64,000 bases of DNA from Escherichia coli (lineage in GTDB: Bacteria > Pseudomonadota > Gammaproteobacteria > Enterobacterales > Enterobacteriaceae), in assembly GCF_003018255.1 (NCBI RefSeq), contig NZ_CP027440.1. The stretch is one strand, 5' to 3'. The notes below the pieces were generated by a model, which made no database searches, was not told the origin of the DNA, and saw only the letters and a program-made list of their open reading frames with translations. The translations under genes were made by a program, and so were the position numbers. Below are positions 12,359-54,879 of the stretch, one piece after another (within the stretch, counting starts at the first letter, position 1; the number at the start of each line of letters is the position of its first letter).

Positions 12359-12761
12359 GCAGTCTCCTCACCATCAAATAGATGGCGTTTTCCTGATGAA
12401 TATCATGCAGCATACTTAACAGCATTGTACTCCATTCTTTCTGCTGCGAAGTTTGCGCTGCCCGGGCTTTATCGAATGCGTTAGCCAGCATCGGCACATG
12501 GTTAATGTCGATGACGATCTCACCATATTTCGGCACGCCTTCCATTTTGCGGCGGGCTTCGCTGCCCGCCTCCAGAGTGGCAATCCATGCCAGATAGTCA
12601 TCCCACGGGCAGGTAAGCGCCGCTTCCAGGCAATCGATAACCCCAAGGTGGTGACCAATCGCCAGGCTGTAATAGACCACCTGCTGCGCCTCGGCGGGCG
12701 TAGCATCGTTCTCATCAATAAATTTACGGCTCAGTTGACTGAACACCACCTTTTCACTCAT
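12351..12761 (-). CDS. hycH: Formate hydrogenlyase maturation protein HycH
   Basis: ORF track 136 aa; position between hycG and hycI, overlapping junctions. Confidence 0.92.
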
Positions 12762-13525
12762 CGGATACGCGCCTCTTCAACAACATGATTCAGATGGCTG
12801 ACAATCTCGTTCAGACGCGGATCGTTTTCCGCTTCCAGCCAGCGTGCAACCTGTTCTTCGCCCTGCCCTAACTGTGTAAGGTAATCATCGGCAATCTGAC
12901 GACCGTAACGATAACCCGCCAGGCGGCGTGCTTCGCGATCCACTTTCACACGCAGCGGCTGCACCATATCGCCATGCAGGATCTCCGCCGGTTGTTCATC
13001 CTGCTCACCCGGCCCACGGGCGTGAATTTTCTGCTCCAGCAGGCCGAGCGCCATTGCAAAGCCGTATAGCGTAGCGGCAGGCGTTGGCGGGCAGCCAGGG
13101 ATGTAGACATCTACCGGGACGATTTTATCCGTACCGCCCCACACGCAGTAGAGATCGTGGAAGATCCCACCACTGTTACCGCAGGCACCGTAGGAGATAC
13201 AGATTTTCGGGTCCGGCGCGGACTGCCACGCACGCAGCGCAGGGGATCGCATTGCACGGGTGACCGCGCCGGTAAACAGTAAAATATCCGCATGACGCGG
13301 TGAAGGAACGACTTTAATGCCGAAGCGTTCTGCATCAAACAGCGGCGAAAGCGTGGCGAAAATTTCGATTTCGCAGCCGTTGCAGCCACCGCAGTCCACG
13401 CGGTAAACGTAGGCAGAACGTTTGATTTTTTTCAGTAACGACGCCTTCATGCTGGCGATGGATTCATCCACCGTCATCGGGACCGGAATGCCGTTGGCGT
13501 CACGGGGGCCTAATAAATTGCTCAT
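12758..13525 (-). CDS. hycG: Formate hydrogenlyase (hydrogenase 3) small subunit
   Basis: ORF track 255 aa; NuoB-like small subunit with conserved Cys ([14 protein letters not shown]). Confidence 0.95.
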
Positions 13526-14067
13526 CAGATGGCCTCTTTCATATGGCGAGTCAGTTCAATACGGTCGGACGGCACCAGGCATTTCTGGCGCTTACATTCC
13601 GGGCAAGTCTCAAAGCTTTCGCGGTGGTTTTCCGCGCGGCTGTCACCATTGTGCTTAAGCAGCGCAATGGCGTAGTCGATCTCTTTCTGGACGGCGAAAG
13701 GACGATTGCAGACGCGGCAGTTGCACAGCGCGAAGCGGGACTGTTGGAGGAAGTCTTCTTTCTTCCACACCGCCAGTTCGTACTCTTGCGACAGTTTGAT
13801 CGCCGCCGTCGGGCAAACTTCTTCGCAGCGTCCACAGAAGATGCAGCGCCCGAGATTAAACTCCCAGGCCAGCTCTCCTGTGGCGAGGTCGGTTTCAACC
13901 GTTAAGGCGTTTGACGGGCAGGCATTGACGCAGGCCGCGCAGCCGATGCACTGCTGCGGGTTCTGCTCTGGCTTACCACGGAAGTTTTTATCAACCGCAA
14001 TCGGCTCCAGCGGATAAGACGAGGTCGCCGTGCCGGTTTTGATGACTTTTTTGATAAAGGTAAACAT
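13525..14067 (-). CDS. hycF: Formate hydrogenlyase iron-sulfur subunit
   Basis: ORF track 180 aa; two 4Fe-4S CxxCxxCxxxCP motifs. Confidence 0.95.
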
Positions 14068-14076
14068 GGCGATTCC

Positions 14077-15786
14077 TTATTTCAGCGGCGAGTTTTTACG
14101 CTCAATGCTGTAACGCTCGAGTTCTTTGTACGGCACCACTTTGCTCTTCTTCTTACGCACATCGACCACGGTCATGCGGTCGGTACAGGAGTAGCAAGGG
14201 TCCAGGCTACCGATAATCAGCGGCGCATCGGAAACGGTGTTGCCGCGCAGCATGTAGCGCAGGGTCGGCCAGTTCGCGTAGGTCGCGGCACGGCAGCGCC
14301 AGCGGTACAGCTTCTGGTTGTCGCCGGTCATGCTCCAGTGGATATCGTCGCCGCGCGGCGCTTCGGCAAAGCCCAGCGCAAAACGGTGCGGAATGTAGGT
14401 AAAACCTTCTACCATCAACGGACCGCCCGGCAGGTTATCCAGACCGTAGTCGATCATGTTCAGCGCGGTATAGACCTCGTTGATTCGCACTTTCAGACGG
14501 GAAATAACGTCGCAGCCCTGCTCGCTGTGGACTTCCATTGGCAGCAGGCCATAACCGACAAACGGGTGATCGGCGCGAGTATCGCGGGCGTGACCGCTGG
14601 CGCGAACCATCGGGCCAACGTTACTGAAATCGCGGGCGATTTCCGGGTCCAGACGACCAATGCCGACGGTGCGCTGTTCCATGTTCGGTGTGCTCAGCAG
14701 CACATCCACCAGCTCCTGCACTTCACGACGCATCTGTTGTGCCAGATGGCGGGTCTGGATCATGTCGTCTTTCAGCAGATCGCGACGAATCCCGCCGATC
14801 AGGTTCAGGCCGTAGGTTTTACGTGCACCGGTAAGGATCTCTGCCATTTTCATGGAGGTTTCACGCACGCGGAAGAACTGCATAAAGCCGGAGTCGAAGC
14901 CGGTAAAGTGACAGGCGAGGCCGAGATTGAGCAGATGCGAGTGCAGGCGTTCCACCTCCAACAGAATGGCGCGGATCATCTGCGCACGTTCTGGCACCTG
15001 AATACCCATCGCGTTTTCCACCGACGTGGTGTAGGCGGTGCTGTGAGCAAAGCCGCAGATCCCGCACACACGGTCAGAGAGGAAGGTCACTTCGTTGTAA
15101 CCCATACGGGTTTCCGCCAGTTTTTCCATGCCGCGATGGACGTAGAACAGGCGGTAGTCGGCGTCGATAATGTTTTCACCATCGACAAACAGACGGAAGT
15201 GACCCGGTTCGTCAGAAGTGACGTGCAGGGGACCAATCGGCACGACGTTGTTTTTCTTGTCGCCCAGTTCGTTGATGAACTCGTAGGTTTCAGCATCGGT
15301 AGTCGGTGCCGGACGCTGACGATAATCCATGCTGTCTTTACGCAGAGGATAAAGTTCATCCGGCCAGTCATCCGGCAGCACCAGACGGCGTTCATCCGGC
15401 AGACCAACCGGAATCAAACCGTACATATCGCGCACTTCACGCTCGCCCCACACTGCCGCCGGAACGCGCGGCGTCACGGAAGGATACTCCGGTTTGTTGG
15501 CGTCAACTTCGACGCGCACCGTTACCCAACACTTAGTCCCCTTCTCCATCGACAGCACGTAATAAACGGCGTAATGACCATTCAGTTTGCGTTCGTCGTT
15601 ACCAAACAGCACCGACAGCCAGCCCCCCTGCTTGTAGTAGAGAAACTCCACCACTTCCGGCAGGTAGTTCACCTTCACGGTCACGGTCAGCTGATCTTTG
15701 GTCTGCCAGGCGTGGTCCAGCACGACGCCCGGAAATGCCTCATTCAGCGCGGCGAGATAATGTTGACCTAATTTTTCTTCAGACAT
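14077..15786 (-). CDS. hycE: Hydrogenase 3 [NiFe] large subunit
   Basis: ORF track frame 576 aa, start placed at MSEEKLGQHY (569 aa); N-terminal RxCGxC and C-terminal DPCxSCxDR nickel-binding motifs (DPCYSCTDR). Confidence 0.96.
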   Translation of the reverse strand: MSEEKLGQHYLAALNEAFPGVVLDHAWQTKDQLTVTVKVNYLPEVVEFLYYKQGGWLSVLFGNDERKLNGHYAVYYVLSMEKGTKCWVTVRVEVDANKPEYPSVTPRVPAAVWGEREVRDMYGLIPVGLPDERRLVLPDDWPDELYPLRKDSMDYRQRPAPTTDAETYEFINELGDKKNNVVPIGPLHVTSDEPGHFRLFVDGENIIDADYRLFYVHRGMEKLAETRMGYNEVTFLSDRVCGICGFAHSTAYTTSVENAMGIQVPERAQMIRAILLEVERLHSHLLNLGLACHFTGFDSGFMQFFRVRETSMKMAEILTGARKTYGLNLIGGIRRDLLKDDMIQTRHLAQQMRREVQELVDVLLSTPNMEQRTVGIGRLDPEIARDFSNVGPMVRASGHARDTRADHPFVGYGLLPMEVHSEQGCDVISRLKVRINEVYTALNMIDYGLDNLPGGPLMVEGFTYIPHRFALGFAEAPRGDDIHWSMTGDNQKLYRWRCRAATYANWPTLRYMLRGNTVSDAPLIIGSLDPCYSCTDRMTVVDVRKKKSKVVPYKELERYSIERKNSPLK

Positions 15787-15803
15787 GCTCAAACTCTCTT
15801 TAA

Positions 15804-16727
15804 TCACGCCGCCAGCAAGGAGACGAACGCTAAAAATGCAAAGCCAAAACCAGCCCAGGTAATGCGTGGAGTAATATCAAGACGCAAACGGGCCATGCTG
15901 TTTTCGAACAGCGCGATAACCAGTACGCCGACCACCAGTTTGACGATGGCAATCACCAGCGCCAGCAGCAGCCCACCGACGGTGAAGGTTTCCATTTGTC
16001 CCCACGGAATAAACACCCCGACGAACATCTGCAACACCACCAGCTGTTTCAGGCTGATGCCCCATTTCATGACGCCAAAGCCGCTGCCGCTATACTCAGA
16101 GAGCGGACCTTCCTGCAACTCCTGCTCGGCTTCCGCCAGGTCGAACGGCAGTTTGCCCATTTCGATAAAAGTGGCGAACGCACAGGCACAAAGCGCCAGC
16201 ACCAGCGGGATGCTCTGGCTCAGTGGCCAGTGATAAACGGTGTCGGTGATGTTGCTGATGTTGGTGGAACCGGCAACCTGTGCGGCGACCCACAGACCAA
16301 GCAGCAGCATCGGTTCAACCAACACGCCAAGCATCGCTTCACGGCTCGCGCCGATAGCGGTAAACGGGCTACCAGTATCCAGACCAGAAATGGCAAAGAA
16401 GAAACGCGCGATGGCGAAGAGATACAGTAAGGTGATCAAATCGCCCAGTTGCGGCAGCGGAGAGCCGACGGTCACCACCGGCAGCGCAGTGGCGATAGTC
16501 AGCATGACGCCCACCATCACATACGGCGTCAGGCGGAACACCCAGCCGGAGGCATCCGGGCCAACGCTCTGACGCCCCAGCAGTTTGATAATGTCGCGAT
16601 ACTCCTGCAACACGCCCGGCCCACGACGGTTATGCAAGCGGGCGCGCGCTACGCGGGTAATACCGGAGAGCAGCGGCGCAACGGCAAATAACACCAGCGC
16701 CTGAATTAACGGATATAAAACACTCAT
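15804..16727 (-). CDS. hycD: Formate hydrogenlyase membrane subunit (NuoH-like)
   Basis: ORF track 307 aa, hydrophobic multi-pass protein in hyc operon position. Confidence 0.94.
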   Translation of the reverse strand: MSVLYPLIQALVLFAVAPLLSGITRVARARLHNRRGPGVLQEYRDIIKLLGRQSVGPDASGWVFRLTPYVMVGVMLTIATALPVVTVGSPLPQLGDLITLLYLFAIARFFFAISGLDTGSPFTAIGASREAMLGVLVEPMLLLGLWVAAQVAGSTNISNITDTVYHWPLSQSIPLVLALCACAFATFIEMGKLPFDLAEAEQELQEGPLSEYSGSGFGVMKWGISLKQLVVLQMFVGVFIPWGQMETFTVGGLLLALVIAIVKLVVGVLVIALFENSMARLRLDITPRITWAGFGFAFLAFVSLLAA

Positions 16728-16729
16728 TC

Positions 16730-18556
16730 TCAGGCTCCTCGTGAAACAATAATCACCACCAGTACCGCCAGTTCAACCAGCGCCATCCGGCGGAACAGCA
16801 ACGCACTCCCCTCGCACTGCCAGCCCGGCACCAGCGACACCGGATTCAGCCATTTGCGTAGTTTCAGCACCGGCGCAAACGCCTGTTTCACCGGCATGGC
16901 AAAACCGTGAGCGGTAATCACCATTGATTTTTCATGATCGTAGCCGCACACCCAGGCCGCGCCGCGGGAACGCGACGGCAAACGATCGCCTTTGCAAATC
17001 GCCATAATGATGAATGGCAGCAGCGGGCAGGCAATCAGCAGCAACGTGATCATGGGTTGAGAAACGGTGGTGTTAGCAGGCTCCAGCGGCAGAGGTACAG
17101 CAGCAGAGAGCATCGGCAGTAGCCACGGCGCAGCAACACCGCCAATTACGCAGCAAATCGCCAGTGCCACTACGCTTACGCTCATCAGGAGCGGCGCACA
17201 GGTGGCGTTTTCGGCCTCTTTGGTACGCGGCGCGCCGAGGAAAGTAACGCCATAAACTTTCGCCATACACATCACCGCCAGCGCACCGGTAATTGCCAGC
17301 CCCACGGCGAGCAGCGGCCCGAGAAGACGGGCAACAAACGCGCCACTATTGCTCAGTTTGAAGAAGGATTGATAGATAACCCATTCCCCGGCAAACCCGT
17401 TCAGCGGCGGCAGCGCAGCCATTGCCATCAGCCCGACTAACATGGCGATGGAGATAACCGGCATTTTCTTGCCAATACCACCGAGTTTTTCGATATCGCG
17501 ATGACCGGTACGGAACCAGACGCTCCCCGCACCAAGGAACAGTACGCTCTTGAACAGGCTATGGTTAAGCAGATGGTACAGACCACCAACCAGACCAAGG
17601 GCAATCAGCGCCGGTTGTTCGAGCGCGATACCCGTTACGCCAGCGCCCAGCCCCAGCAGGATGATGCCGATATTTTCCAGGGTGTGGTAAGCCAGCAGAC
17701 GTTGGATATTATGTTCCATCAACGCATACAGACCGCCGACGAATGCGGTGATCATGCCGAGTACCAGCAGTGCGATCCCCCACCACAGCGGTGCATTACC
17801 GCCCAGTAGTGACAGAGTTAAAATGCCCAGCAGGCCAATTTTCATGACTACCGTGGAAAACAGCGCGGCAGCTGGCGCAGAGGCGTTGGCATGTGCCTGT
17901 GGCACCCAGCCGTGCAGCGGAATAATCCCGGCCAGCAGGCCAAAGCCAATCACACCGAGCAGCCAGATATCGGAACCGAGCGGCAGCTGTTGCATACGCA
18001 TATCCAGCAGGCGCAGATCCAGCGTGCCGTAACGCTGCCACAGCAGCCAGCAGGCAATCGCCAGCAGCAGAGTGCCAAGACGCCCCAGCGCAAACCACAG
18101 TTTGCCCTCTTTGCTGTTGCTGGTGAGGAACACCGCACACAGGGCCATGATTTCGGCCATTACCACGAACATGCCGAGGTTGCTGGCGATGACGGCGCAG
18201 ACGGCGGCAGCCATCAACATATTGATCTGCAAGCCGTTGCACTTCACCTGCGCGTGGCGATGCCAGTCAATGTTGTAGAGGCTGACAAACAGACCGCATA
18301 GGCCGAGCGTAATCAGCCAAATCGCATTAAGCGGAGAGATTTGCACATCGTAGCTTACCAGCGACAGCGCACCGCTCACGCCAACCGCGCCAGTCAGCAC
18401 TGTGAAGCCCGCGGCTGCCGTATACAGGCTACCAACCGCGCCGCCAATTCCGGCTATCCAGCCGCTTAGCGCCTTTTGAAAAGAAAAGAGAAATGCCAGA
18501 ACAGCGGCGGCGACAAACCACGCCACGCCGCTATTGATCAGGGAAATTGCGCTCAT
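16730..18556 (-). CDS. hycC: Formate hydrogenlyase membrane subunit (NuoL/antiporter-like)
   Basis: ORF track 608 aa, highly hydrophobic, operon position. Confidence 0.94.
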   Translation of the reverse strand: MSAISLINSGVAWFVAAAVLAFLFSFQKALSGWIAGIGGAVGSLYTAAAGFTVLTGAVGVSGALSLVSYDVQISPLNAIWLITLGLCGLFVSLYNIDWHRHAQVKCNGLQINMLMAAAVCAVIASNLGMFVVMAEIMALCAVFLTSNSKEGKLWFALGRLGTLLLAIACWLLWQRYGTLDLRLLDMRMQQLPLGSDIWLLGVIGFGLLAGIIPLHGWVPQAHANASAPAAALFSTVVMKIGLLGILTLSLLGGNAPLWWGIALLVLGMITAFVGGLYALMEHNIQRLLAYHTLENIGIILLGLGAGVTGIALEQPALIALGLVGGLYHLLNHSLFKSVLFLGAGSVWFRTGHRDIEKLGGIGKKMPVISIAMLVGLMAMAALPPLNGFAGEWVIYQSFFKLSNSGAFVARLLGPLLAVGLAITGALAVMCMAKVYGVTFLGAPRTKEAENATCAPLLMSVSVVALAICCVIGGVAAPWLLPMLSAAVPLPLEPANTTVSQPMITLLLIACPLLPFIIMAICKGDRLPSRSRGAAWVCGYDHEKSMVITAHGFAMPVKQAFAPVLKLRKWLNPVSLVPGWQCEGSALLFRRMALVELAVLVVIIVSRGA

Positions 18557-26872: not shown

Positions 26873-29434
26873 ATGAGAACAATAGAAAATTTCGACGCCC
26901 ATACGCCTATGATGCAGCAGTATCTCAAGCTGAAAGCCCAGCATCCCGAGATCCTGCTGTTTTACCGGATGGGCGACTTTTATGAACTGTTTTATGACGA
27001 CGCAAAACGGGCGTCGCAACTGCTGGATATTTCACTGACCAAACGCGGTGCTTCAGCGGGAGAGCCAATCCCGATGGCGGGGATTCCCTACCATGCGGTG
27101 GAAAACTACCTCGCCAAACTGGTGAATCAGGGCGAATCGGTTGCTATTTGTGAACAGATTGGCGATCCGGCGACCAGCAAAGGGCCGGTCGAGCGCAAAG
27201 TTGTCCGTATCGTTACGCCGGGCACCATCAGCGATGAAGCGCTGTTGCAGGAACGTCAGGACAACCTGCTGGCGGCTATCTGGCAGGACAGCAAGGGGTT
27301 CGGCTACGCCACGCTGGATATCAGCTCCGGGCGTTTTCGCCTGAGCGAACCGGCGGACCGCGAAACGATGGCGGCAGAACTGCAACGTACGAATCCAGCG
27401 GAATTACTGTATGCGGAAGATTTCGCCGAGATGTCGCTGATTGAAGGTCGCCGCGGCCTGCGTCGTCGCCCGCTGTGGGAGTTTGAAATCGACACCGCTC
27501 GCCAGCAATTGAACCTGCAATTTGGCACCCGAGATCTGGTCGGTTTTGGTGTGGAGAACGCACCACGCGGACTTTGTGCTGCCGGTTGTCTGTTGCAGTA
27601 TGCGAAAGATACCCAACGCACGACCCTGCCGCATATTCGTTCTATCACTATGGAACGTCAGCAGGACAGCATCATTATGGATGCCGCGACGCGTCGTAAC
27701 CTGGAAATTACTCAGAACCTGGCCGGCGGTGCGGAAAATACGCTGGCTTCAGTGCTCGACTGTACTGTAACGCCGATGGGTAGTCGTATGCTGAAACGCT
27801 GGCTGCATATGCCAGTGCGCGATACCCGCGTGTTGCTTGAGCGCCAGCAAACTATTGGCGCATTGCAGGATTTCACCGCCGAGCTGCAGCCGGTACTGCG
27901 TCAGGTCGGCGACCTGGAACGTATTCTGGCGCGTCTGGCTTTACGAACTGCTCGTCCACGCGATCTGGCCCGTATGCGTCACGCTTTCCAGCAACTGCCG
28001 GAGCTGCGCGCGCAACTGGAAGGTGTCGATAGCGCCCCGGTACAAGCACTGCGTGAGAAGATGGGCGAGTTTGCCGAACTGCGCGACCTGCTGGAGCGAG
28101 CAATCATCGACACGCCGCCGGTGCTGGTACGCGACGGTGGTGTTATTGCGACTGGTTATAACGAAGAACTGGATGAATGGCGCGCGCTGGCTGACGGCGC
28201 GACCGATTATCTGGAGCGTCTGGAAGTCCGCGAGCGTGAACGTACTGGCCTGGACACCCTGAAAGTCGGCTTTAACGCGGTTCATGGTTATTACATTCAG
28301 ATCAGCCGTGGACAAAGCCATCTGGCACCCATCAATTACATGCGTCGCCAGACGCTGAAAAACGCCGAGCGCTACATTATTCCAGAGCTAAAAGAGTACG
28401 AAGACAAAGTTCTCACTTCAAAAGGCAAAGCACTGGCACTGGAAAAACAGCTTTATGAAGAGTTGTTCGACCTGCTGTTGCCGCATCTGGAAGCGTTGCA
28501 ACAGAGCGCGAGCGCGCTGGCGGAACTCGACGTGCTGGTGAACCTGGCGGAACGGGCCTATACGCTGAACTACACCTGCCCGACCTTTATTGATAAACCG
28601 GGTATTCGCATCACCGAAGGCCGCCATCCGGTGGTTGAACAGGTGCTGAATGAGCCGTTTATCGCCAACCCGCTGAACCTGTCGCCGCAGCGTCGCATGT
28701 TGATCATTACCGGTCCGAATATGGGCGGTAAAAGTACCTATATGCGCCAGACCGCACTGATTGCGCTGATGGCCTACATCGGCAGCTATGTACCGGCACA
28801 AAAAGTCGAGATTGGACCTATCGATCGCATCTTTACCCGCGTAGGGGCAGCGGATGATCTGGCATCCGGGCGTTCAACCTTTATGGTGGAAATGACCGAA
28901 ACCGCCAATATTTTACATAACGCCACCGAGTACAGTCTGGTGCTGATGGATGAGATTGGGCGTGGAACGTCCACTTACGATGGTCTGTCGCTGGCGTGGG
29001 CGTGCGCGGAAAATCTGGCGAATAAGATTAAAGCGTTGACGTTGTTTGCTACCCACTATTTCGAGCTGACCCAGTTACCGGAGAAAATGGAAGGCGTCGC
29101 CAACGTGCATCTCGATGCACTGGAGCACGGCGACACCATTGCCTTTATGCACAGCGTGCAGGATGGCGCAGCGAGCAAAAGCTACGGCCTGGCGGTTGCA
29201 GCTCTGGCCGGCGTGCCAAAAGAGGTTATTAAGCGCGCACGGCAAAAACTGCGTGAGCTGGAAAGCATTTCGCCGAACGCCGCCGCTACGCAAGTGGATG
29301 GTACGCAAATGTCTTTGCTGTCAGTGCCAGAAGAAACGTCGCCTGCGGTCGAAGCACTGGAAAATCTCGACCCGGATTCACTGACTCCGCGTCAGGCGCT
29401 GGAGTGGATTTATCGCTTGAAGAGTCTGGTGTAA
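26873..29434 (+). CDS. mutS: DNA mismatch repair protein MutS
   Basis: ORF track 853 aa; Walker [10 protein letters not shown], conserved mismatch-binding N-terminus (GDFYELF). Confidence 0.97.
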
Positions 29435-29440
29435 TAACAA

Positions 29441-29475
29441 TTCCCGATAGTCTTTTGCTATCGGGAATATTAACG
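29441..29475 (+). terminator. Putative mutS terminator hairpin
   Basis: TTCCCGATAG-TCTTTTG-CTATCGGGAA perfect 10-bp stem 7 nt after the mutS stop; weak U-tract. Confidence 0.5.
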
Positions 29476-29539
29476 ACAACTGACGAATCAAATAAAAATA
29501 CCCTGTATAATAGGAAATCTTATTTTACAGGGTAAAACC

Positions 29540-30196
29540 ATGCCATCTACACGCTACCAAAAAATCAATGCCCATCACTATCACCATATATGGGCCGTTG
29601 GTGATATTCATGGTGACTATCAATTATTACAATCCCGCTTACATCAACTCTCTTTTTGTCCTGAAACCGACTTGCTTATTTCTGTCGGCGATAACATCGA
29701 TCGTGGGCCCGAGAGTCTTAACGTGCTGCGCCTGTTAAACCAGCCCTGGTTTATCTCCGTCAAAGGCAACCACGAAGCGATGGCGCTTGAGGCATTCGAA
29801 ACTGGCGATGGAAATATGTGGCTTGCCAGCGGTGGTGACTGGTTTTTCGATTTAAATGATTCAGAGCAACAAGAGGCAATAGATCTGTTGCTGAAATTCC
29901 ATCACCTTCCACATATTATTGAAATCACTAACGACACCATAAAATATGTCATCGCACATGCAGATTATCCGGGGAAGGAGTATCAGTTTGGCAAAGAAAT
30001 AGCGGAGAGCGAATTACTCTGGCCTGTTGATCGTGTGCAGAAATCACTTAATAGCGAATTACAAAAAATAAACGGCGCTGATTATTTTATATTTGGACAT
30101 ATGATGTTTGATAACATTCAGACGTTCGCAAACCAGATTTATATTGATACCGGATCGCCGAAAAGCGGGCGGCTGTCATTTTATAAAATAAAGTAG
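29540..30196 (+). CDS. pphB: Serine/threonine protein phosphatase 2 (lambda-PPase-like metallophosphatase)
   Basis: ORF track 218 aa; metallophosphatase motifs GDIHG, GDNIDRG, GNHE; AT-rich relative to neighbours. Confidence 0.92.
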   Translation: MPSTRYQKINAHHYHHIWAVGDIHGDYQLLQSRLHQLSFCPETDLLISVGDNIDRGPESLNVLRLLNQPWFISVKGNHEAMALEAFETGDGNMWLASGGDWFFDLNDSEQQEAIDLLLKFHHLPHIIEITNDTIKYVIAHADYPGKEYQFGKEIAESELLWPVDRVQKSLNSELQKINGADYFIFGHMMFDNIQTFANQIYIDTGSPKSGRLSFYKIK

Positions 30197-30246
30197 TCTC
30201 ATGCTTCTTCTGTGAAGCATGAGTAACCCGGCGTTATTGCAGGTCA

Positions 30247-31016
30247 TTATTCATTTTTCGCTACCAGCAAAGAGAGATCCAGCTTCGCCAGCGCGCGGCT
30301 GGCACTCTCCGGCAGACCATCGTCAGTAATGATCTGATCAAACTCGCTTAATGGTAACGCCAGCCATGTCGCCACCTGTCCATATTTCGTCGCATCACAG
30401 ACCAAAACTCGCTGGCGGCTGGCACTGGCAATCGCCCGTTTCACCGTGACTTTATCTTCTGCTGGCGTAGAGATCCCCCGCACACTCCATGACGATGCAG
30501 AAATAAAAGCCTGATCAATCATCAGGCTACGCAGCATGGTCGCAGCGGCTTCCCCAACACAGGAACGGTTTTCCCGACACACTGCGCCGCCAGTGTGAAT
30601 AATTGTGCAATTACTGTTGTCGAGCAAGTAGTCCGCAATAACGAAGTCGTTAGTAACCACTGTGAGTGGCTCCATGTGAGTCAGATGCTGTGCAATCGCT
30701 AACGTGGTCGTTCCCGCATCCAGATAGATACAACGTCCCGGCTGAACAAGACTTGCCGCCAGCTTGCCAATAGCCGCTTTTTGCGTCATTGCCAGCGCAG
30801 TTTTTACCTGATGAGAAGGTTCATGCGCCACCCGTCCCGGAGACTGGACGCCCCCGGACACCAACACAACGGCTCCCTGCTGCTCCAGTTTTTGTAAATC
30901 CCGACGAATGGTCATATGTGACACATTCATTCTGTCCGTTAGTTCAGCAATACTAACAATGCCTTTTTCAGCTACCATCTCAAGGATGATTTGGCGACGC
31001 TCTACGGGTATCAACT
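30247..31016 (-). CDS. ygbI: DeoR-family transcriptional regulator
   Basis: ORF track frame 30247..31044 (265 aa from ATG); the conserved N-terminus as I recall it (MIPVERRQIILEMV...) would correspond to a TTG start at 31016 preceded by AGGAAGGA; DeoR HTH plus sugar-binding domain. Start codon uncertain (31016 vs 31044). Confidence 0.85.
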
Positions 31017-31209
31017 TTTGCTCCTTCCTTTGTCCTGCTGACATTCTACGCTATTTGCCTGCGAAACGTGCGCGGCGCAACTAACGCTTAGTTCACATAA
31101 AATAACATACAATGTTAATTTTTGTGAATCAGCTCACCATATCGTTATCTTTCCGCGCTTATATTCACAACATCAAACAAAATATCACTTAAATTAACAA
31201 GGAGAGCAG

Positions 31210-32118
31210 ATGAAAACGGGATCGGAGTTTCATGTCGGTATCGTTGGCTTAGGGTCAATGGGAATGGGAGCAGCACTGTCATGTGTCCGCGCAGGTCTTT
31301 CTACCTGGGGCGCAGACCTGAACAGCAATGCCTGCGCTACGTTGAAAGAGGCAGGTGCTTGCGGAGTTTCTGATAACGCCGCGACGTTTGCCGAAAAACT
31401 GGACGCTCTGCTGGTGCTGGTGGTCAATGCGGCCCAGGTTAAACAGGTGCTGTTTGGTGAAACAGGCGTTGCACAACATCTGAAACCCGGTACGGCAGTA
31501 ATGGTTTCTTCCACTATCGCCAGTGCTGATGCGCAAGAAATTGCTACCGCTCTGGCTGGATTCGATCTGGAAATGCTGGATGCGCCAGTTTCTGGTGGTG
31601 CAGTAAAAGCCGCTAACGGTGAAATGACTGTCATGGCCTCCGGTAGCGATATTGCCTTTGAACGACTAGCACCCGTGCTGGAAGCCGTTGCCGGAAAAGT
31701 TTATCGCATAGGTGCAGAACCGGGACTAGGTTCGACCGTAAAAATTATTCACCAGTTGTTAGCGGGCGTACATATTGCTGCCGGAGCCGAAGCGATGGCA
31801 CTTGCAGCCCGTGCGGGGATCCCGCTGGATGTGATGTATGACGTCGTGACCAATGCCGCCGGAAATTCATGGATGTTCGAAAACCGGATGCGTCATGTGG
31901 TGGATGGCGATTACACCCCGCATTCAGCCGTCGATATTTTTGTTAAGGATCTTGGTCTGGTTGCCGATACCGCCAAAGCCCTGCACTTCCCGCTGCCATT
32001 GGCCTCAACAGCATTGAATATGTTCACCAGCGCCAGTAACGCGGGTTACGGGAAAGAAGACGATAGCGCAGTTATCAAGATTTTCTCTGGCATCACCCTA
32101 CCGGGAGCGAAATCATGA
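31210..32118 (+). CDS. ygbJ: NAD-dependent beta-hydroxyacid dehydrogenase (L-threonate dehydrogenase-like)
   Basis: ORF track 302 aa; N-terminal Rossmann GxGxxG (VGIVGLGSMG), 3-hydroxyisobutyrate dehydrogenase family. Confidence 0.92.
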   Translation: MKTGSEFHVGIVGLGSMGMGAALSCVRAGLSTWGADLNSNACATLKEAGACGVSDNAATFAEKLDALLVLVVNAAQVKQVLFGETGVAQHLKPGTAVMVSSTIASADAQEIATALAGFDLEMLDAPVSGGAVKAANGEMTVMASGSDIAFERLAPVLEAVAGKVYRIGAEPGLGSTVKIIHQLLAGVHIAAGAEAMALAARAGIPLDVMYDVVTNAAGNSWMFENRMRHVVDGDYTPHSAVDIFVKDLGLVADTAKALHFPLPLASTALNMFTSASNAGYGKEDDSAVIKIFSGITLPGAKS

Positions 32119-33377
32119 TCAAGATTGGCGTTATCGCCGATGATTTTACCGGCGCGACGGATATCGCCAGTTTTCTGGTGGAAAACGGTCTACCAACGGT
32201 ACAAATTAACGGTGTTCCAACAGGTAAAATGCCGGAAGCAATCGACGCACTGGTGATCAGCCTGAAAACGCGCTCCTGTCCGGTGGTTGAAGCCACACAG
32301 CAATCGCTGGCGGCTCTGAGCTGGTTGCAACAGCAAGGTTGCAAACAGATCTATTTCAAATACTGCTCTACTTTCGACAGTTCGGCGAAAGGTAATATCG
32401 GCCCGGTTACCGATGCATTAATGGATGCTCTCGACACGCCGTTTACGGTCTTCTCTCCGGCCCTGCCGGTCAACGGACGTACGGTTTATCAGGGGTATTT
32501 GTTCGTAATGAATCAACTGCTGGCCGAATCCGGGATGCGCCATCACCCGGTAAATCCCATGACCGACAGCTATCTTCCCCGTCTGGTTGAAGCGCAATCC
32601 ACAGGGCGCTGCGGCGTCGTTTCGGCACATGTTTTCGAACAAGGTGTGGATGCCGTTCGTCAGGAGCTGGCTCGCTTACAGCAAGAGGGCTACCGCTACG
32701 CGGTGCTTGATGCGCTGACCGAACACCATCTGGAAATTCAGGGAGAAGCCTTGCGCGATACCCCACTGGTAACGGGCGGTTCTGGTCTGGCGATTGGCCT
32801 TGCCCGGCAGTGGGCGCAAGAAAACGGTAACCAGGCTCGCGAAGCAGGGCGTCCGCTCGCTGGGCGCGGCGTAGTGCTCTCCGGTTCATGCTCTCAAATG
32901 ACCAACCGCCAGGTGGCACATTACCGTCAAATTGCACCAGCCCGTGAGGTTGATGTGGCACGCTGCCTCTCAACCGAAACTCTGGCCGCTTATGCACACG
33001 AGCTGGCAGAGTGGGTTCTGGGCCAGGAAAGTGTACTTGCTCCACTGGTTTTTGCCACCGCCAGCACTGACGCATTGGCAGCAATTCAACAGCAATACGG
33101 TGCACAAAAAGCCAGTCAGGCAGTGGAAACACTGTTTTCTCAACTAGCGGCGCGGTTAGCAGCGGAAGGCGTGACACGCTTTATTGTCGCAGGCGGTGAG
33201 ACCTCCGGCGTAGTCACACAGAGCCTGGGCATAAAAGGTTTTCATATTGGCCCAACCATTTCCCCCGGCGTGCCGTGGGTAAACGCACTGGATAAGCCTG
33301 TCTCACTCGCCCTTAAATCTGGCAACTTCGGTGATGAAGCCTTTTTTTCACGAGCCCAAAGAGAGTTTTTATCATGA
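32115..33377 (+). CDS. ygbK: DUF1537-family acid-sugar kinase (3-oxo-tetronate kinase-like)
   Basis: ORF track 420 aa; N-terminal MIKIGVIADDFTGATD typical of the four-carbon acid sugar kinase family; operon position. Confidence 0.9.
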   Translation: MIKIGVIADDFTGATDIASFLVENGLPTVQINGVPTGKMPEAIDALVISLKTRSCPVVEATQQSLAALSWLQQQGCKQIYFKYCSTFDSSAKGNIGPVTDALMDALDTPFTVFSPALPVNGRTVYQGYLFVMNQLLAESGMRHHPVNPMTDSYLPRLVEAQSTGRCGVVSAHVFEQGVDAVRQELARLQQEGYRYAVLDALTEHHLEIQGEALRDTPLVTGGSGLAIGLARQWAQENGNQAREAGRPLAGRGVVLSGSCSQMTNRQVAHYRQIAPAREVDVARCLSTETLAAYAHELAEWVLGQESVLAPLVFATASTDALAAIQQQYGAQKASQAVETLFSQLAARLAAEGVTRFIVAGGETSGVVTQSLGIKGFHIGPTISPGVPWVNALDKPVSLALKSGNFGDEAFFSRAQREFLS

Positions 33378-34012
33378 GCGATTTCGCAAAAGTAGAGCAG
33401 TCTTTGCGAGAGGAGATGACGCGGATTGCCAGTTCATTCTTTCAGCGCGGATATGCAACTGGTTCGGCTGGCAATCTGTCGCTGCTTTTACCTGACGGGA
33501 ATTTACTGGCGACACCGACAGGTTCATGCCTGGGCAATCTCGATCCGCAGCGGCTTTCCAAAGTCACCGCGGATGGCGAATGGTTAAGTGGTGACAAACC
33601 CTCGAAAGAGGTGCTCTTTCATCTGGCGCTGTATCGCAACAATCCGCGCTGTAAAGCGGTAGTGCATTTGCACAGTACGTGGTCGACGGCGCTTTCCTGC
33701 CTGGAAGGGCTGGACAGCAATAACGTTATTCGGCCGTTCACACCATACGTGGTGATGCGGATGGGAAACGTCCCGCTGGTGCCCTATTACCGACCGGGCG
33801 ATAAACGCATCGCACAGGATCTGGCGGAACTGGCAGCAGACAATCAGGCTTTTTTACTGGCAAATCATGGCCCAGTGGTTTGCGGTGAAAGCCTGCAAGA
33901 AGCCGCCAACAATATGGAAGAGCTAGAGGAAACGGCAAAGCTGATTTTTATTCTCGGTGACCGCCCGATCCGTTATCTGACCGCAGGTGAAATTGCGGAA
34001 TTAAGGAGTTAA
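33374..34012 (+). CDS. ygbL: Class II aldolase/adducin-family protein (3-oxo-tetronate 4-phosphate decarboxylase-like)
   Basis: ORF track 212 aa; class II aldolase fold signatures (HLHS, NHG), operon position. Confidence 0.9.
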
Positions 34013-34016
34013 TGCA

Positions 34017-34793
34017 ATGCCTCGTTTTGCAGCTAATTTATCCATGATGTTCACCGAAGTGCCTTTTATTGAACGCTTCGCCGCAGCGCGAAAAGCCGGG
34101 TTCGATGCTGTGGAGTTTCTGTTTCCCTATGACTACTCCCCCCAGCAAATCCAGCAGCAACTGGCGCAAAACCACCTGACGCTGGCGCTGTTCAATACCG
34201 CTCCCGGAGATATTAATGCGGGAGAATGGGGATTATCCGCCCTTCCCGGACGTGAGCACGAAGCACGTGCAGACATCGACCTGGCACTGGAATATGCATT
34301 GGCGCTCAATTGTGAACAAGTCCATGTGATGGCAGGCGTCGTGCCCGCTGGCGAAGATGCTGAACGGTACCGGGCAGTATTTATTGATAATCTCCGCTAC
34401 GCTGCCGACCACTTTGCGCCACACGGCAAGCGAATATTGGTTGAAGCACTCAGCCCCGGCGTTAAGCCTCATTATCTCTTCTCCAGCCAGTATCAGGCAC
34501 TGGCTATTGTTGAAGAGGTTGCGCGAGATAACGTTTTTATTCAACTAGATACTTTCCATGCGCAAAAAGTAGATGGCAACCTGACGCATTTAATCCGCGA
34601 CTACGCCGGGAAATATGCGCACGTACAAATTGCCGGACTACCTGATCGACATGAACCGGACGATGGAGAAATCAACTATCCGTGGCTGTTCCGCCTGTTC
34701 GATGAAGTGGGATATCAGGGCTGGATCGGTTGTGAATACAAACCTCGTGGCCTCACCGAAGAAGGACTTGGCTGGTTTGACGCCTGGCGCTAA
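34017..34793 (+). CDS. ygbM: Hydroxypyruvate isomerase-family protein (2-oxo-tetronate isomerase-like, TIM barrel)
   Basis: ORF track 258 aa; [13 protein letters not shown]-terminus of Hyi/OtnI family. Confidence 0.9.
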
Positions 34794-34881
34794 TTCGTTA
34801 AATCCCCAATTACAACGTACCCATACATCCCCCCATCTACGGATGGGGTAGGTTAACTATAACTTTCAGACAGGGTTTCCC

Positions 34882-36246
34882 ATGTCCACAATTACATTGT
34901 TATGCATTGCGTTAACTGGCGTAATCATGCTGTTGCTGCTGGTCATCAAGGCAAAGGTACAACCATTCGTTGCTCTGCTCCTCGTCAGCCTGTTAGTCGC
35001 ACTTGCGGCGGGTATACCGGCGGGCGAAGTGGGTAAAGTGATGATCGCCGGGATGGGCGGTGTGCTTGGTTCCGTCACTATTATTATTGGTCTGGGCGCT
35101 ATGCTGGGGCGTATGATCGAACACTCTGGTGGTGCAGAGTCACTGGCTAATTATTTCAGTCGCAAGTTAGGCGACAAACGAACTATCGCTGCGCTGACTC
35201 TGGCAGCGTTCTTCCTCGGTATTCCCGTCTTCTTTGATGTCGGCTTTATTATTCTTGCGCCAATCATTTACGGTTTTGCCAAGGTTGCCAAAATATCACC
35301 ACTCAAATTTGGTCTGCCTGTCGCTGGGATCATGCTCACTGTTCACGTGGCGGTACCGCCTCATCCAGGCCCTGTCGCCGCAGCGGGGTTACTCCACGCA
35401 GACATCGGCTGGCTAACCATCATCGGTATTGCGATTTCTATTCCCGTAGGGATTGTTGGCTACTTTGCAGCGAAAATAATCAATAAGCGCCAATATGCGA
35501 TGTCGGTCGAGGTACTGGAACAGATGCAACTGGCTCCGGCCAGTGAGGAAGGCGCGACAAAATTAAGCGATAAAATAAATCCACCGGGCGTCGCGCTGGT
35601 CACCTCGCTAATTGTTATTCCTATCGCGATTATCATGGCGGGTACGGTTTCCGCAACACTGATGCCGCCTTCGCATCCCCTGCTTGGTACGCTACAGCTG
35701 ATCGGCTCACCAATGGTAGCTCTAATGATTGCGCTGGTGCTGGCATTCTGGTTATTGGCTTTACGTCGCGGCTGGAGCTTACAACACACCAGCGACATTA
35801 TGGGCTCAGCCCTTCCCACTGCGGCGGTAGTGATTTTGGTTACTGGTGCTGGAGGGGTATTTGGCAAAGTGCTGGTGGAATCGGGCGTCGGTAAAGCCCT
35901 TGCCAACATGTTACAAATGATTGACCTGCCTCTGTTACCAGCCGCATTTATTATTTCACTGGCGCTGCGTGCATCGCAGGGGTCAGCAACCGTAGCAATC
36001 CTGACAACCGGCGGGTTACTCTCAGAAGCGGTGATGGGATTGAATCCAATTCAGTGCGTATTGGTGACGCTGGCAGCCTGCTTTGGTGGGCTTGGCGCGT
36101 CACATATTAATGACTCAGGGTTCTGGATTGTGACCAAATATCTGGGGTTGTCGGTAGCAGACGGGCTGAAAACCTGGACAGTGTTAACGACCATTCTCGG
36201 TTTTACCGGATTCTTAATTACCTGGTGCATATGGGCGGTAATTTGA
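34882..36246 (+). CDS. ygbN: GntP-family acid-sugar permease
   Basis: ORF track 454 aa, multi-pass hydrophobic, GntP-like. Confidence 0.9.
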   Translation: MSTITLLCIALTGVIMLLLLVIKAKVQPFVALLLVSLLVALAAGIPAGEVGKVMIAGMGGVLGSVTIIIGLGAMLGRMIEHSGGAESLANYFSRKLGDKRTIAALTLAAFFLGIPVFFDVGFIILAPIIYGFAKVAKISPLKFGLPVAGIMLTVHVAVPPHPGPVAAAGLLHADIGWLTIIGIAISIPVGIVGYFAAKIINKRQYAMSVEVLEQMQLAPASEEGATKLSDKINPPGVALVTSLIVIPIAIIMAGTVSATLMPPSHPLLGTLQLIGSPMVALMIALVLAFWLLALRRGWSLQHTSDIMGSALPTAAVVILVTGAGGVFGKVLVESGVGKALANMLQMIDLPLLPAAFIISLALRASQGSATVAILTTGGLLSEAVMGLNPIQCVLVTLAACFGGLGASHINDSGFWIVTKYLGLSVADGLKTWTVLTTILGFTGFLITWCIWAVI

Positions 36247-36253
36247 CCTTAAT

Positions 36254-36290
36254 AAAAGGTCCGATGGGCATCGGACCTTTTATTTAGCGC
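36254..36290. terminator. Bidirectional terminator between convergent ygbN and ecdD
   Basis: AAAAGGTCCGAT-GGGC-ATCGGACCTTTTATTT: stem flanked by A-run and T-run, usable on both strands. Confidence 0.75.
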
Positions 36291-51293: not shown

Positions 51294-52497
<1,204 letters not shown>

Positions 52498-52512
52498 TTT
52501 ATTACACCTCAA

Positions 52513-53112
52513 TCACAGTGGAGCCAAAGATAGCAAGCCACATCCCATCGATTTAGCTGGCCCAATACCTTGCTGTACAAGATCTATTAACGCTGGCGCG
52601 TCGTTGATGGTGATCACCCCTTCAAAGCAAACCGTTTGGATCTTTCCACTTTTACCATCACCAGAAAAATACTGTGGCCGTTCCGATATGGGATGCACAT
52701 CTTCAACGCGCGCCGCATTGCCCAATTTACGTTGCAACCACGCGATTTGTTCTGCTTCTTTTATTAACGGAACCCGACAGCGTTTAATATTCCCTTTACT
52801 GTCCAGGCGCTTTTGATTGTCGAGAATAGTTTTGATCGGATTTGCCCGAAGCCGAAAATAGAGTGGAACACCAACCTGAAGTTGAAATTCAACCTGTTTA
52901 GTTTTAATGACTGTCGCAACGGCAGTAGAAACAGGCATTTGCGCTGACTGCAATAAAACATGACAGCCTTCTGGTGTGTTTCGCTTCTCAACATGAAAAA
53001 GAAAATCACGAGCAGCATCCGGTCTGTTTGGAAATAAATGCCATAATCCCTGGTGAAGTTGGTAAAGATCCCTGCTCCAGGCCCTGGCAATGATGACTTT
53101 ACTGAGATACAT
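52513..53112 (-). CDS. cas6e: Cas6e (CasE) crRNA endoribonuclease
   Basis: ORF track 199 aa (MYLSKVIIARAWSRDLYQLH...). Confidence 0.95.
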   Translation of the reverse strand: MYLSKVIIARAWSRDLYQLHQGLWHLFPNRPDAARDFLFHVEKRNTPEGCHVLLQSAQMPVSTAVATVIKTKQVEFQLQVGVPLYFRLRANPIKTILDNQKRLDSKGNIKRCRVPLIKEAEQIAWLQRKLGNAARVEDVHPISERPQYFSGDGKSGKIQTVCFEGVITINDAPALIDLVQQGIGPAKSMGCGLLSLAPL

Positions 53113-53773
53113 CCATACCTCCTTTAATCACATACCATTCTCGGGAAGCAAATTGTCGAGGTAAGGTGATCATCGGTTCGTCGCGCACCGTAAATTTTAA
53201 ATGATGCCCGTCAACTGATTCCTCACTATAAATATCGCCGCCAACGGGCTCATAATTTAATAGCGCCTTCTGAGGATCCGACGCCTGACATGTCCCGAGA
53301 AAAAGCGGTTGTGTTAGCGGACAACTCCTCCGCCCCAGATACGGTGTATACCGAGGCTTTAATACTGCTTTTTCAAGTTCTGACATAACCATCGTTGCCT
53401 GTGGTGTTAACCAGATAGCGACGGTAAAGGAGGCATCACATAAATATTCGCGCCATGTTTGAATCGTTTCATGACTTTTCAAACCACGGTAATCTTCTCG
53501 CGCTCCAAGGACTGTATGGTAATCACGCAACCCCGTTACAGACACACGACGATCGTCAAGAATGAGTTCATCGCAGCGCACTGCAAATTGCACACTCTCT
53601 GATAACGCCTGTAATGAAGAAGTATCATCACGTTGGATCCCAAGACAAGCCCCGAGTAGCCCTAATAACCCGCTTCGGGTCGGAAATCTTCCGGTAGGTC
53701 GCGTTCCTTCAAAGGTCGGCTGCCCCCAGGCTTGCATTGGCCCAGCAAGCCGCAAGATCAAATAAGATCTCAT
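53099..53773 (-). CDS. cas5: Cas5e (CasD) Cascade subunit
   Basis: ORF track frame 226 aa; start placed at MRSYLILRLAGPMQAWG (224 aa). Confidence 0.94.
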   Translation of the reverse strand: MRSYLILRLAGPMQAWGQPTFEGTRPTGRFPTRSGLLGLLGACLGIQRDDTSSLQALSESVQFAVRCDELILDDRRVSVTGLRDYHTVLGAREDYRGLKSHETIQTWREYLCDASFTVAIWLTPQATMVMSELEKAVLKPRYTPYLGRRSCPLTQPLFLGTCQASDPQKALLNYEPVGGDIYSEESVDGHHLKFTVRDEPMITLPRQFASREWYVIKGGMDVSQ

Positions 53774-53775
53774 GT

Positions 53776-54867: not shown

Positions 54868-54879
54868 AGAAAGGTTTCC

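What the first reader, a model, noticed from the sequence alone, without database searches (positions are those of the whole stretch)
29435..30246. pphB is a compositional island (AT-rich) between mutS and the ygb cluster
By eye the pphB gene and its upstream region are markedly AT-richer than mutS and ygbI on either side, and it is flanked by hairpins at both ends (29441-29467 and 30198-30223). The lambda-phosphatase-like enzyme therefore looks like an old horizontally acquired single-gene insertion in the variable mutS-rpoS region.
Basis: partly seen in the sequence, partly recalled or inferred. Interest (0 to 1): 0.3.

Follow-up and report, generated by a model that had tools for sequence, protein, structure and literature searches.

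The report
pphB: old AT-rich acquired phosphatase gene
The AT-rich stretch after mutS is the known E. coli phosphatase gene pphB, an old foreign gene now kept by nearly all E. coli; this is ordinary and mostly already known.

Summary
Region 29435-30246 is 41.5% GC against 52.5% for the window. pphB (29540-30196) has the lowest GC of 52 ORFs (42.5%). Both hairpins are real.

- **Distribution.** pphB sits 3' of mutS in all Escherichia species sampled and in 5411 of 5426 complete E. coli genomes. It is absent from that site in 61 of 73 judged Enterobacteriaceae loci, several of which have mutS and rpoS directly adjacent.
- **Composition.** Orthologues stay at 41-48% GC in every host. The low GC comes mainly from codon positions 1 and 2; GC3 is only moderately low (z -1.25).
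- **Relatives.** Lambda NinI, P1 Ppp and PphA are 43-49% identical. Closer relatives (55-67%) are cargo of integrase/AlpA-type mobile islands.
- **Salmonella.** Its "pphB" lies upstream of mutS and groups with an island copy (bootstrap 200/200), so it is not a positional orthologue.
- **Function.** The gene is under purifying selection (dN/dS 0.08-0.19) with intact catalytic motifs.
- **Hairpins.** They are not island ends. The left one looks like the mutS terminator; the right one belongs to the neighbouring 6.1-kb ygb segment.

In passing I found an E. coli island that integrates into the 5' end of mutS and carries a PphB-like gene.

The parts
26873..29434 (+). mutS, the core gene on the left flank (55.9% GC)
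   Evidence: 853-aa ORF; annotated mutS in matching E. coli records; GC
29440..29468 (+). Hairpin directly after the mutS stop codon (ATTCCCGATAG / CTATCGGGAAT). Best read as the mutS terminator or a REP-like element, not an island boundary.
   Evidence: -18.2 kcal/mol, z -6.8. The same CCCGA...TCGGG arms lie within 60 nt of the mutS stop in 19 of 76 loci, 11 of them without pphB. The U-tract on the + strand is weak.
29469..29539 (+). pphB upstream region: perfect -10 hexamer TATAAT at 29506-29511 inside an imperfect inverted repeat (29499-29515 / 29518-29534), then the ribosome-binding region
   Evidence: The spacer is 92% conserved per column across Escherichia species, more than the coding sequence. 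TATAAT-type boxes sit at the same distance upstream of PphB-clade genes in other hosts. Promoter function is inferred, not shown.
29540..30196 (+). pphB (prpB), a 218-aa PPP-family, lambda-phosphatase-like Ser/Thr protein phosphatase; 42.5% GC
   Evidence: NCBIfam NF007425 equivalog, 469 bits against a cutoff of 332. Pfam Metallophos 4e-17. PDB 1g5b (lambda phosphatase) 1e-56. Motifs GDIHG21, GDNIDRG50, GNHE76, H140 and H187 intact; dN/dS 0.08-0.19.
30198..30223 (-). Hairpin CTCATGCTTC / GAAGCATGAG. It is the left end of the 6.1-kb ygb segment and probably the ygbI terminator (its T-richer tail is on the - strand). It is not part of the pphB segment.
   Evidence: It is present in K-12-type genomes that carry ygbI and is replaced by a different hairpin in O157-type and other genomes.
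30196..36276 (.). ygb segment (ygbI, ltnD/ygbJ, otnK, otnC, ygbM, ygbN), a separate insertion/deletion polymorphism that starts at the last base of the pphB stop codon
   Evidence: Homology to O157-type genomes stops at 30195 and resumes at 36277. In those genomes a 34-bp terminator hairpin stands in its place.
30247..31044 (-). ygbI, a DeoR-family repressor convergent with pphB (51.9% GC)
   Evidence: Pfam DeoRC and HTH_DeoR; record annotation

Best explanation
The region is pphB (prpB). It encodes a functional, metal-dependent PPP-family Ser/Thr protein phosphatase related to the phage lambda phosphatase, and it has its own upstream promoter-like region.

It is an old horizontal acquisition. 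A one-gene, AT-rich (about 42% GC) cassette was placed between the convergent core genes mutS and rpoS in an ancestor of the genus Escherichia. The source was a pool of PphB-clade genes that today travel as cargo of integrase/AlpA-type mobile islands. Since then the gene has been kept by nearly all E. coli under purifying selection. It has also been swapped between genera by recombination through the highly conserved flanks.

Shown here: the composition, the distribution, the phylogeny, the selection and the intact catalytic motifs. Inferred: the donor type, the recombination route, the promoter and the enzyme's cellular targets.

The two hairpins are ordinary terminators of neighbouring units (mutS on the left, the ygb segment on the right). 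They are not ends of a mobile element.
For: Identity: NF007425 PphB equivalog at 469 bits, 93% identical to K-12 PphB, lambda phosphatase 1g5b at 1e-56, and all PPP motifs present.

Composition: lowest GC of 52 ORFs. Orthologues are 41-48% GC in every host while the mutS 3' end is 54-59%. Island-borne and Salmonella relatives are also 41.9% GC.

Distribution: pphB is present 3' of mutS in 12 of 73 judged loci. These are 5 Escherichia species representatives, 2 Pseudocitrobacter, K. spallanzanii, UBA5654 and Superficieibacter, plus 2 E. coli-like contigs filed under non-Escherichia MAGs that are probably contamination. It is absent in 61 loci, including 19 Citrobacter, 14 Enterobacter, 5 Klebsiella and 2 Salmonella. 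Trabulsiella, C. braakii and others show empty sites with mutS 70-180 bp from rpoS. It is core in E. coli: 5411 of 5426 genomes.

Phylogeny: the PphB clade has 200/200 bootstrap support and is separate from PphA and from lambda and P1 phosphatases (43-49% identity). Members at 55-67% identity lie in AlpA-type islands, one of which also carries a tyrosine integrase.

Exchange between genera: between the window and P. vendiensis, dS is 0.48 for pphB but 0.80 for mutS. Between the window and the E. coli Sel1-linked allele, dS is 0.85 for pphB but 0.095 for mutS. That allele is 92-93% identical to a Pseudocitrobacter MAG, although their mutS genes are only 86.6% identical.

Selection: dN/dS is 0.08-0.19.
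Against: - No mobility gene, direct repeat, att site or tRNA adjoins the window's pphB, so the insertion mechanism cannot be read from the sequence.
- The low GC is driven mostly by codon positions 1 and 2. It is shared by the whole phosphatase family (PphA 47.8%, lambda NinI 44.9%), so composition alone is weak evidence of foreignness.
- GC3 and codon deviation lie within about 1.3 sd of the window mean.
- The presence/absence survey covers one locus per species, not whole genomes.
- The tree is neighbour-joining only.
- The group that shares the mutS-3' position has only 152/200 bootstrap support.
Confidence: 0.8

Rival explanations
1. pphB is an ancestral Enterobacteriaceae gene that most genera lost. 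Its low GC reflects only the amino-acid composition of this enzyme family and weak codon selection, not foreign origin.
For: GC1 and GC2, not GC3, drive the low GC. All family members are AT-rich whatever their host. The gene is core in E. coli and under purifying selection. PMC7232297 calls pphB 'ancestral at this locus'.
Against: - This reading needs many independent, clean losses: 61 of 73 loci are empty, some with mutS and rpoS 70-180 bp apart.
- Within Klebsiella only K. spallanzanii has the gene, and within Pseudocitrobacter 2 of 3 do.
- Salmonella's copy is on the other side of mutS and groups 200/200 with an island-borne E. coli copy, and 0/200 with the Escherichia group.
- dS is discordant between pphB and the adjacent mutS.
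Confidence: 0.1
2. pphB is the last remnant of a decayed lambdoid (or P1-like) prophage whose ninI/ppp phosphatase gene was left behind next to mutS.
For: Best PHROG is 246, 'NinI-like serine-threonine phosphatase', at 1.5e-72. 1349 phage records hold a homologue. The solved lambda phosphatase is the best PDB match.
Against: - No phage record exceeds 47% identity.
- Lambda and P1 phosphatases fall outside the PphB clade.
- No other phage gene, att site or integrase adjoins the gene.
- Closer relatives (55-67%) are on non-phage islands that carry defence genes.
Confidence: 0.07
3. There is no meaningful island. The dip in GC is ordinary gene-to-gene variation plus normally AT-rich intergenic spacers.
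For: Intergenic spacers here are generally AT-rich; ygbI-ygbJ is 37.6%. GC3 is z -1.25 and the codon deviation resembles that of the neighbouring ygb genes.
Against: The coding sequence alone has the lowest GC of 52 ORFs (z -2.6). The 812-bp stretch is in the 2.5th percentile. Distribution and phylogeny independently show a foreign origin.
Confidence: 0.03

Closest known systems
E. coli K-12 PphB / PrpB (b2734), phosphoprotein phosphatase 2
   Same: Same gene at the same position (mutS-pphB-ygbI). The protein is 93% identical (204 of 218 residues) and the 105-bp spacer is 97% identical. It matches the NCBIfam equivalog model.
   Different: This is an allelic variant, 94% identical in nucleotides. 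The exact allele is found in only 2 of 5426 complete genomes.
Bacteriophage lambda Ser/Thr phosphatase (NinI / lambda PP, PDB 1g5b)
   Same: Same PPP fold family, same length class and the same metal-binding and catalytic motifs. It aligns end to end at 1e-56 with about 44% identity.
   Different: It is phage-borne, in the nin region, and falls in a separate clade. It is not the direct donor.
E. coli PphA / PrpA (b1838)
   Same: Paralogous 218-aa PPP phosphatase. From my own recollection (not checked here, paper not held), PrpA and PrpB were described together by Missiakas and Raina in 1997. PMC6610125 ascribes modulation of CpxRA and htrA to PphA.
   Different: 44% identity. It lies at a different locus (next to sdsR/ryeA) and forms its own clade with Enterobacter proteins.
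Salmonella enterica pphB (PrpB) at the SPI-1 / mutS boundary
   Same: A PphB-clade member (60% identity), 41.9% GC, also adjacent to mutS in a known hotspot for horizontal transfer (PMC7232297; PMC3569456).
   Different: It lies upstream of mutS, not downstream. It groups with an island-borne E. coli copy (67% identity, bootstrap 200/200) and not with Escherichia PphB, so it probably reflects a separate acquisition.
Polymorphic mutS-rpoS region of E. coli (the ygb 6.1-kb segment and the decarboxylase / MarR segment)
   Same: The same mosaic region. This window carries both segments. The mosaic and the horizontal transfer of mutS are described in PMC4209514.
   Different: pphB is the nearly invariant, mutS-proximal edge. 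The known presence/absence polymorphisms begin exactly at its stop codon.

Membership tests
PPP-family (lambda-phosphatase-like) protein phosphatases | Signature motifs GDxHG, GDxxDR(G) and GNH(E/D) | tested here: met
   GDIHG at residue 21, GDNIDRG at 50 and GNHE at 76
PPP-family (lambda-phosphatase-like) protein phosphatases | Calcineurin-like metallophosphoesterase domain, with the later metal-binding histidines conserved | tested here: met
   Pfam PF00149 at 63.6 bits against a cutoff of 21.5. H140 and H187 align with the lambda phosphatase histidines. The ligand numbering for lambda comes from memory.
PPP-family (lambda-phosphatase-like) protein phosphatases | Mn2+-dependent phosphoprotein phosphatase activity | not testable with these tools
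   Needs an enzyme assay. Activity was reported for K-12 and Salmonella PrpB in papers that are not held here.
PphB equivalog (NCBIfam NF007425 / PRK09968) | Full-length score above the curated cutoff | tested here: met
   469.2 bits against 332. The PphA model scores 233 against 326 and so is not met.
Genomic island (classical definition) | Atypical base composition | tested here: met
   Lowest GC of 52 ORFs, 2.5th percentile. GC3 is only moderately low.
Genomic island (classical definition) | Sporadic phylogenetic distribution at the locus | tested here: met
   Present in 12 and absent in 61 of 73 judged loci
Genomic island (classical definition) | Mobility genes (integrase or transposase), flanking direct repeats, or tRNA/att adjacency | tested here: not met
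   No such ORF lies next to pphB. There are no flanking repeats and no tRNA in the window. The two hairpins are unrelated sequences.
Lambdoid prophage remnant | Other phage genes nearby, or close (over 60%) identity to a phage gene | tested here: not met
   The best of 1349 phage records is 46.6% identical. The neighbours are mutS and ygbI.
Intrinsic terminators (the two hairpins) | G+C-rich stem-loop followed by a U-tract on the transcribed strand | tested here: inconclusive
   The stems are strong. The scan calls both only on the - strand, and the + strand tails are poor in T.

The most novel reading that the evidence does not exclude
pphB and mutS may be neighbours because PphB-clade phosphatases are cargo of a family of tyrosine-integrase islands that use the 5' end of mutS as their attachment site.

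- One such island, about 41 kb, sits in E. coli GPEC389. It has about 44-nt mutS-5' repeats at both ends and carries AbiP2, PD-Lambda-4, a HipA-domain gene and a PphB-like gene.
- Homologous integrases lie directly upstream of mutS in five other Enterobacteriaceae loci.
- Remnants of the integrase are found in 35 E. coli genomes.

On this reading, Salmonella's pphB and possibly the Escherichia copy are domesticated relics of such islands. The phosphatase might originally have served conflicts between mobile elements and phages or toxins, for example by countering Ser/Thr kinases, rather than envelope-stress signalling.
Probability: 0.2. Interest if true: 0.5.

Novelty: already known. Interest (0 to 1): 0.2.

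Why it matters
For the finding itself, little. pphB is a named, characterised gene, and the mutS flanks are a textbook mosaic region. The analysis confirms a routine case of an old, domesticated foreign gene.

Two by-products have modest value. First, the Salmonella and Escherichia 'pphB' genes are probably separate acquisitions rather than one ancestral gene that changed sides of mutS. Second, an integrase-bearing island inserts into the mutS 5' end and re-supplies the start of the gene. That would give a concrete mechanism for the fhlA/-/mutS insertion hotspot, where a 2020 study (PMC7232297) saw no integration site. It could also affect mutS expression.

Tried and rejected
- **Hairpins as island ends or att sites.** Rejected. 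The two hairpins are unrelated in sequence. The left type also follows mutS in genomes without pphB, and the right one belongs to the ygb segment.
- **Flanking direct repeats, tRNA genes, Rfam RNAs.** None found.
- **Conserved RNA structure in the spacer inverted repeat (29499-29534).** In E. albertii the right arm changes without compensation. I therefore read the region as a promoter rather than a structured RNA.
- **Remnant of the Sel1 gene in the window's 105-bp spacer.** I saw no similarity.
- **Defence-system models for PphB or the Sel1 protein.** No PADLOC family matched PphB, and the Sel1 protein gave only a chance-level hit.
- **A phage carrying a close PphB-clade gene.** None is above 47% identity, for either PphB or the island copy.
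- **The original papers on the mutS-rpoS region and on PrpA/PrpB** (PMC94221, PMC110980, PMC95552, PMC1169771). They are not held in the library, so statements about them rest on memory or on citing papers.
- **A regex search of the window for the O157-type terminator hairpin.** It is absent, because the ygb segment replaces it.

Full report
**1. What is there**

The window is an E. coli chromosome segment. Gene order is hyc/hyp, fhlA, ygbA, mutS (26873-29434, +), pphB (29540-30196, +), ygbI (30247-31044, -), ygbJ to ygbN, the hydroxyarylic-acid decarboxylase genes, rpoS, nlpD, and further on cys and cas genes. The finding's coordinates run from the first base after the mutS stop codon to the base before the ygbI stop codon.

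**2.

- The 812-bp stretch is 41.5% GC against 52.5% for the window. That is the 2.5th percentile of all 812-bp windows, and only the cas region is as low.
- pphB is 42.5% GC, the lowest of 52 long ORFs (z -2.6). mutS is 55.9% and ygbI 51.9%.
- The deficit lies mainly at codon positions 1 (z -2.1) and 2 (z -2.7), both the lowest in the window. GC3 is 44.3% (z -1.25, rank 8 of 52) and the synonymous-codon deviation ranks 9 of 52.
- Both hairpins are real and far more stable than shuffled controls. 29440-29468 gives -18.2 kcal/mol (z -6.8). 30198-30223 gives -16 to -17 kcal/mol (z -3.4 and -4.2).

**3. The gene**

The product matches the NCBIfam PphB equivalog (469 bits, cutoff 332) and fails the PphA model. 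It has a Metallophos domain. It aligns end to end with the solved lambda phosphatase 1g5b (1e-56). It keeps GDIHG, GDNIDRG, GNHE and both later histidines. It is 93% identical to K-12 PphB. dN/dS against seven other Escherichia and Pseudocitrobacter alleles is 0.08-0.19, so the gene is under purifying selection, though it is far less constrained than mutS (0.000-0.013).

**4. Distribution**

pphB matches in 5411 of 5426 complete E. coli genomes, and 5375 of these cover at least 80% of the gene.

I anchored a scan of one genome per species on the MutS C-terminus and obtained 80 Enterobacteriaceae loci. A tblastn search of these loci found pphB just 3' of mutS in 12 of 73 judged loci:
- five Escherichia species representatives;
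- two of three Pseudocitrobacter;
- Klebsiella spallanzanii, alone among six Klebsiella loci;
- Enterobacteriaceae UBA5654 and Superficieibacter;
- two E. coli-like contigs in MAGs that are probably contamination.

pphB is absent from that site in 61 loci, including 19 Citrobacter, 14 Enterobacter, 5 Klebsiella, 3 each of Raoultella, Trabulsiella and Kluyvera, and Salmonella arizonae and diarizonae. In Trabulsiella, C. braakii and several others, mutS and rpoS are only 70-180 bp apart and share a terminator. This looks like the empty site. In Superficieibacter and UBA5654, pphB is the only gene between mutS and rpoS; in one Escherichia lineage (L006) only a decD remnant accompanies it.

**5. 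Composition is a family trait**

Orthologues are 41-48% GC in every host, while the adjoining mutS 3' end is 54-59%. The island-borne and Salmonella relatives are 41.9%, lambda NinI 44.9% and PphA 47.8%. The gene has therefore not moved toward host composition. By itself, though, GC is a weak marker of foreignness for this family.

**6. Relatives**

No phage record exceeds 47% identity to PphB.

In a neighbour-joining tree of 39 proteins with 200 bootstraps:
- the PphB clade (55-100% identity) is fully supported (200/200) and separate from PphA and from the lambda and P1 phosphatases;
- Escherichia plus Pseudocitrobacter form a group (200/200);
- the group that shares the mutS-3' position has moderate support (152/200);
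- Salmonella PphB groups with an E. coli island-borne protein (200/200) and never with the Escherichia group (0/200).

Salmonella's gene lies upstream of mutS, next to SPI-1 invH. This agrees with PMC7232297 and PMC3569456, which also list it at 41.7% GC in a variable cluster.

**7. Exchange between genera**

Between the window and P. vendiensis, synonymous divergence is 0.48 for pphB but 0.80 for the adjoining mutS.

About 225 E. coli genomes carry a pphB allele only 80-90% identical to the window's. In the two I inspected, a Sel1-repeat gene (38% GC) lies between mutS and pphB. That allele differs from the window by dS 0.85, although the mutS genes differ by only 0.095. It is 92-93% identical to the cassette of a Pseudocitrobacter MAG whose mutS is only 86.6% identical.

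I infer that recombination through the very conserved flanks moves the segment between genera. This fits the published view of the mutS region (PMC4209514; PMC7232297).

**8. The hairpins are not island ends**

A hairpin follows the mutS stop codon in most loci. The same CCCGA...TCGGG arms occur within 60 nt of the stop in 19 of 76 loci, 11 of them without pphB. I therefore read the left hairpin as the mutS terminator or a REP-like element.

Homology to O157-type genomes ends at 30195, the second base of the pphB stop codon, and resumes at 36277. In those genomes a 34-bp terminator hairpin replaces the whole 6.08-kb ygb segment. The right hairpin is therefore the end of the ygb segment, probably the ygbI terminator.

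No direct repeats, tRNA or Rfam element flank pphB.

**9. Verdict**

pphB is an old, horizontally acquired, single-gene, AT-rich insertion that has become a core Escherichia gene. The hairpins and codon usage add little to the argument. The gene, its family, the mosaic nature of the mutS flanks and the low GC of the Salmonella homologue are all already described, so this is known biology and of low interest.

**10. By-product**

In E. coli GPEC389 an island of about 41 kb lies between ygbA and mutS.
- Its ygbA-side junction keeps the original mutS leader plus the first ~44 nt of mutS.
- Its other junction supplies a variant copy of those ~44 nt fused to the intact gene. A tyrosine integrase lies about 220 bp upstream.
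- The island carries the PphB-like gene. The same genome also has the canonical pphB.
- Homologous integrases (62-68% identity) lie directly upstream of mutS in five other loci. MutS N-termini fall into two discrete types that are distributed patchily across genera.
- 35 E. coli genomes, including strain 536, hold this integrase or a truncated copy; position next to mutS was checked only in GPEC389 and strain 317.

This points to site-specific integration into the mutS 5' end as one cause of the fhlA/-/mutS hotspot. It offers a route for the Salmonella copy. Whether it explains the Escherichia copy is untested.

Noticed in passing
L095 (NZ_CM142810.1 1045970-1086626) and L096; corresponds to window 26873-26916 (mutS 5' end): E. 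coli GPEC389 has an island of about 41 kb inserted into the 5' end of mutS. A copy of the first ~44 nt of mutS sits at each end, the island-side copy being a sequence variant that restores the ORF. A tyrosine integrase lies about 220 bp upstream of mutS. Cargo includes AbiP2, PD-Lambda-4, a HipA-domain gene, RadC, DUF2787 and a PphB-clade phosphatase. 35 of 5426 E. coli genomes hold this integrase or a truncated copy, including strains 536 and F11.
   Followed up: partly
mutS start in L001-L085; window 26873-26947: MutS N-termini fall into two discrete types: 'MS[TAV]I[ED]N[FL]DAHTPMMQ' (853 aa) and 'M[NKQ]ES[IFL]DKD[FL]S.HTPMMQ' (855 aa). They are distributed patchily across and within genera. 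Homologous integrases abut mutS in L017, L019, L022, L070 and L072. C. sedlakii (L029) has a second partial mutS 5' copy 1.7 kb upstream. These may be scars of island integration.
   Followed up: partly
L003 3113-4657 (E. coli MS1050); L031 10384-11926: A second E. coli haplotype has a 287-aa Sel1-repeat gene (38% GC) inserted between mutS and a divergent pphB allele (85% nucleotide identity to the window). About 225 genomes carry an allele that divergent. The cassette is 92-93% identical to one in a Pseudocitrobacter MAG. K. spallanzanii also has Sel1/TPR-like genes upstream of its pphB.
   Followed up: partly
window 30196-36276: The ygb (L-threonate / 3-oxo-tetronate) segment is a clean 6.08-kb insertion/deletion with a hairpin at each end (30198-30223 and about 36250-36283). 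In O157-type genomes a 34-bp terminator hairpin stands in its place.
   Followed up: yes
window 12758-18556, 26873-29434, 29540-30196: The strain is a divergent E. coli lineage and a local mosaic. The hyc operon is only 97-98% identical to all genomes except JNE23-011. The mutS allele is at least 99% identical in 75 genomes but about 94% identical to K-12. The exact pphB allele occurs in only 2 genomes.
   Followed up: partly
window 29435-29539: The 105-bp mutS-pphB spacer is more conserved across Escherichia species (92% per column, 97% to K-12) than the pphB coding sequence. An invariant AAATAAAAATACCCTGTATAATAG block holds a perfect -10 box within an imperfect 17-nt inverted repeat.
   Followed up: partly
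window 51580-59944: The CRISPR-associated (cas) gene block is the most AT-rich and most codon-atypical part of the window (GC 43-50%, GC3 35-42%), more so than pphB.
   Followed up: no
L004, L016, L056: There are probable mislabelled or contaminated public records. An 'Oscillospiraceae' MAG contig and a second contig of a Citrobacter MAG carry E. coli-type mutS-pphB. A 'Chryseobacterium sp. 18061' contig is an Enterobacteriaceae mutS-rpoS locus.
   Followed up: no
L002 7979-8971; hit H40: E. coli O157:H7 Vac_07.1 has rpoS annotated as a pseudogene with an internal stop. In O157:H7 Balcarce_14.2 only 50 bases of the query match, and mutS and nlpD are annotated under that match, which suggests a deletion of the whole mutS-rpoS interval.
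   Followed up: no
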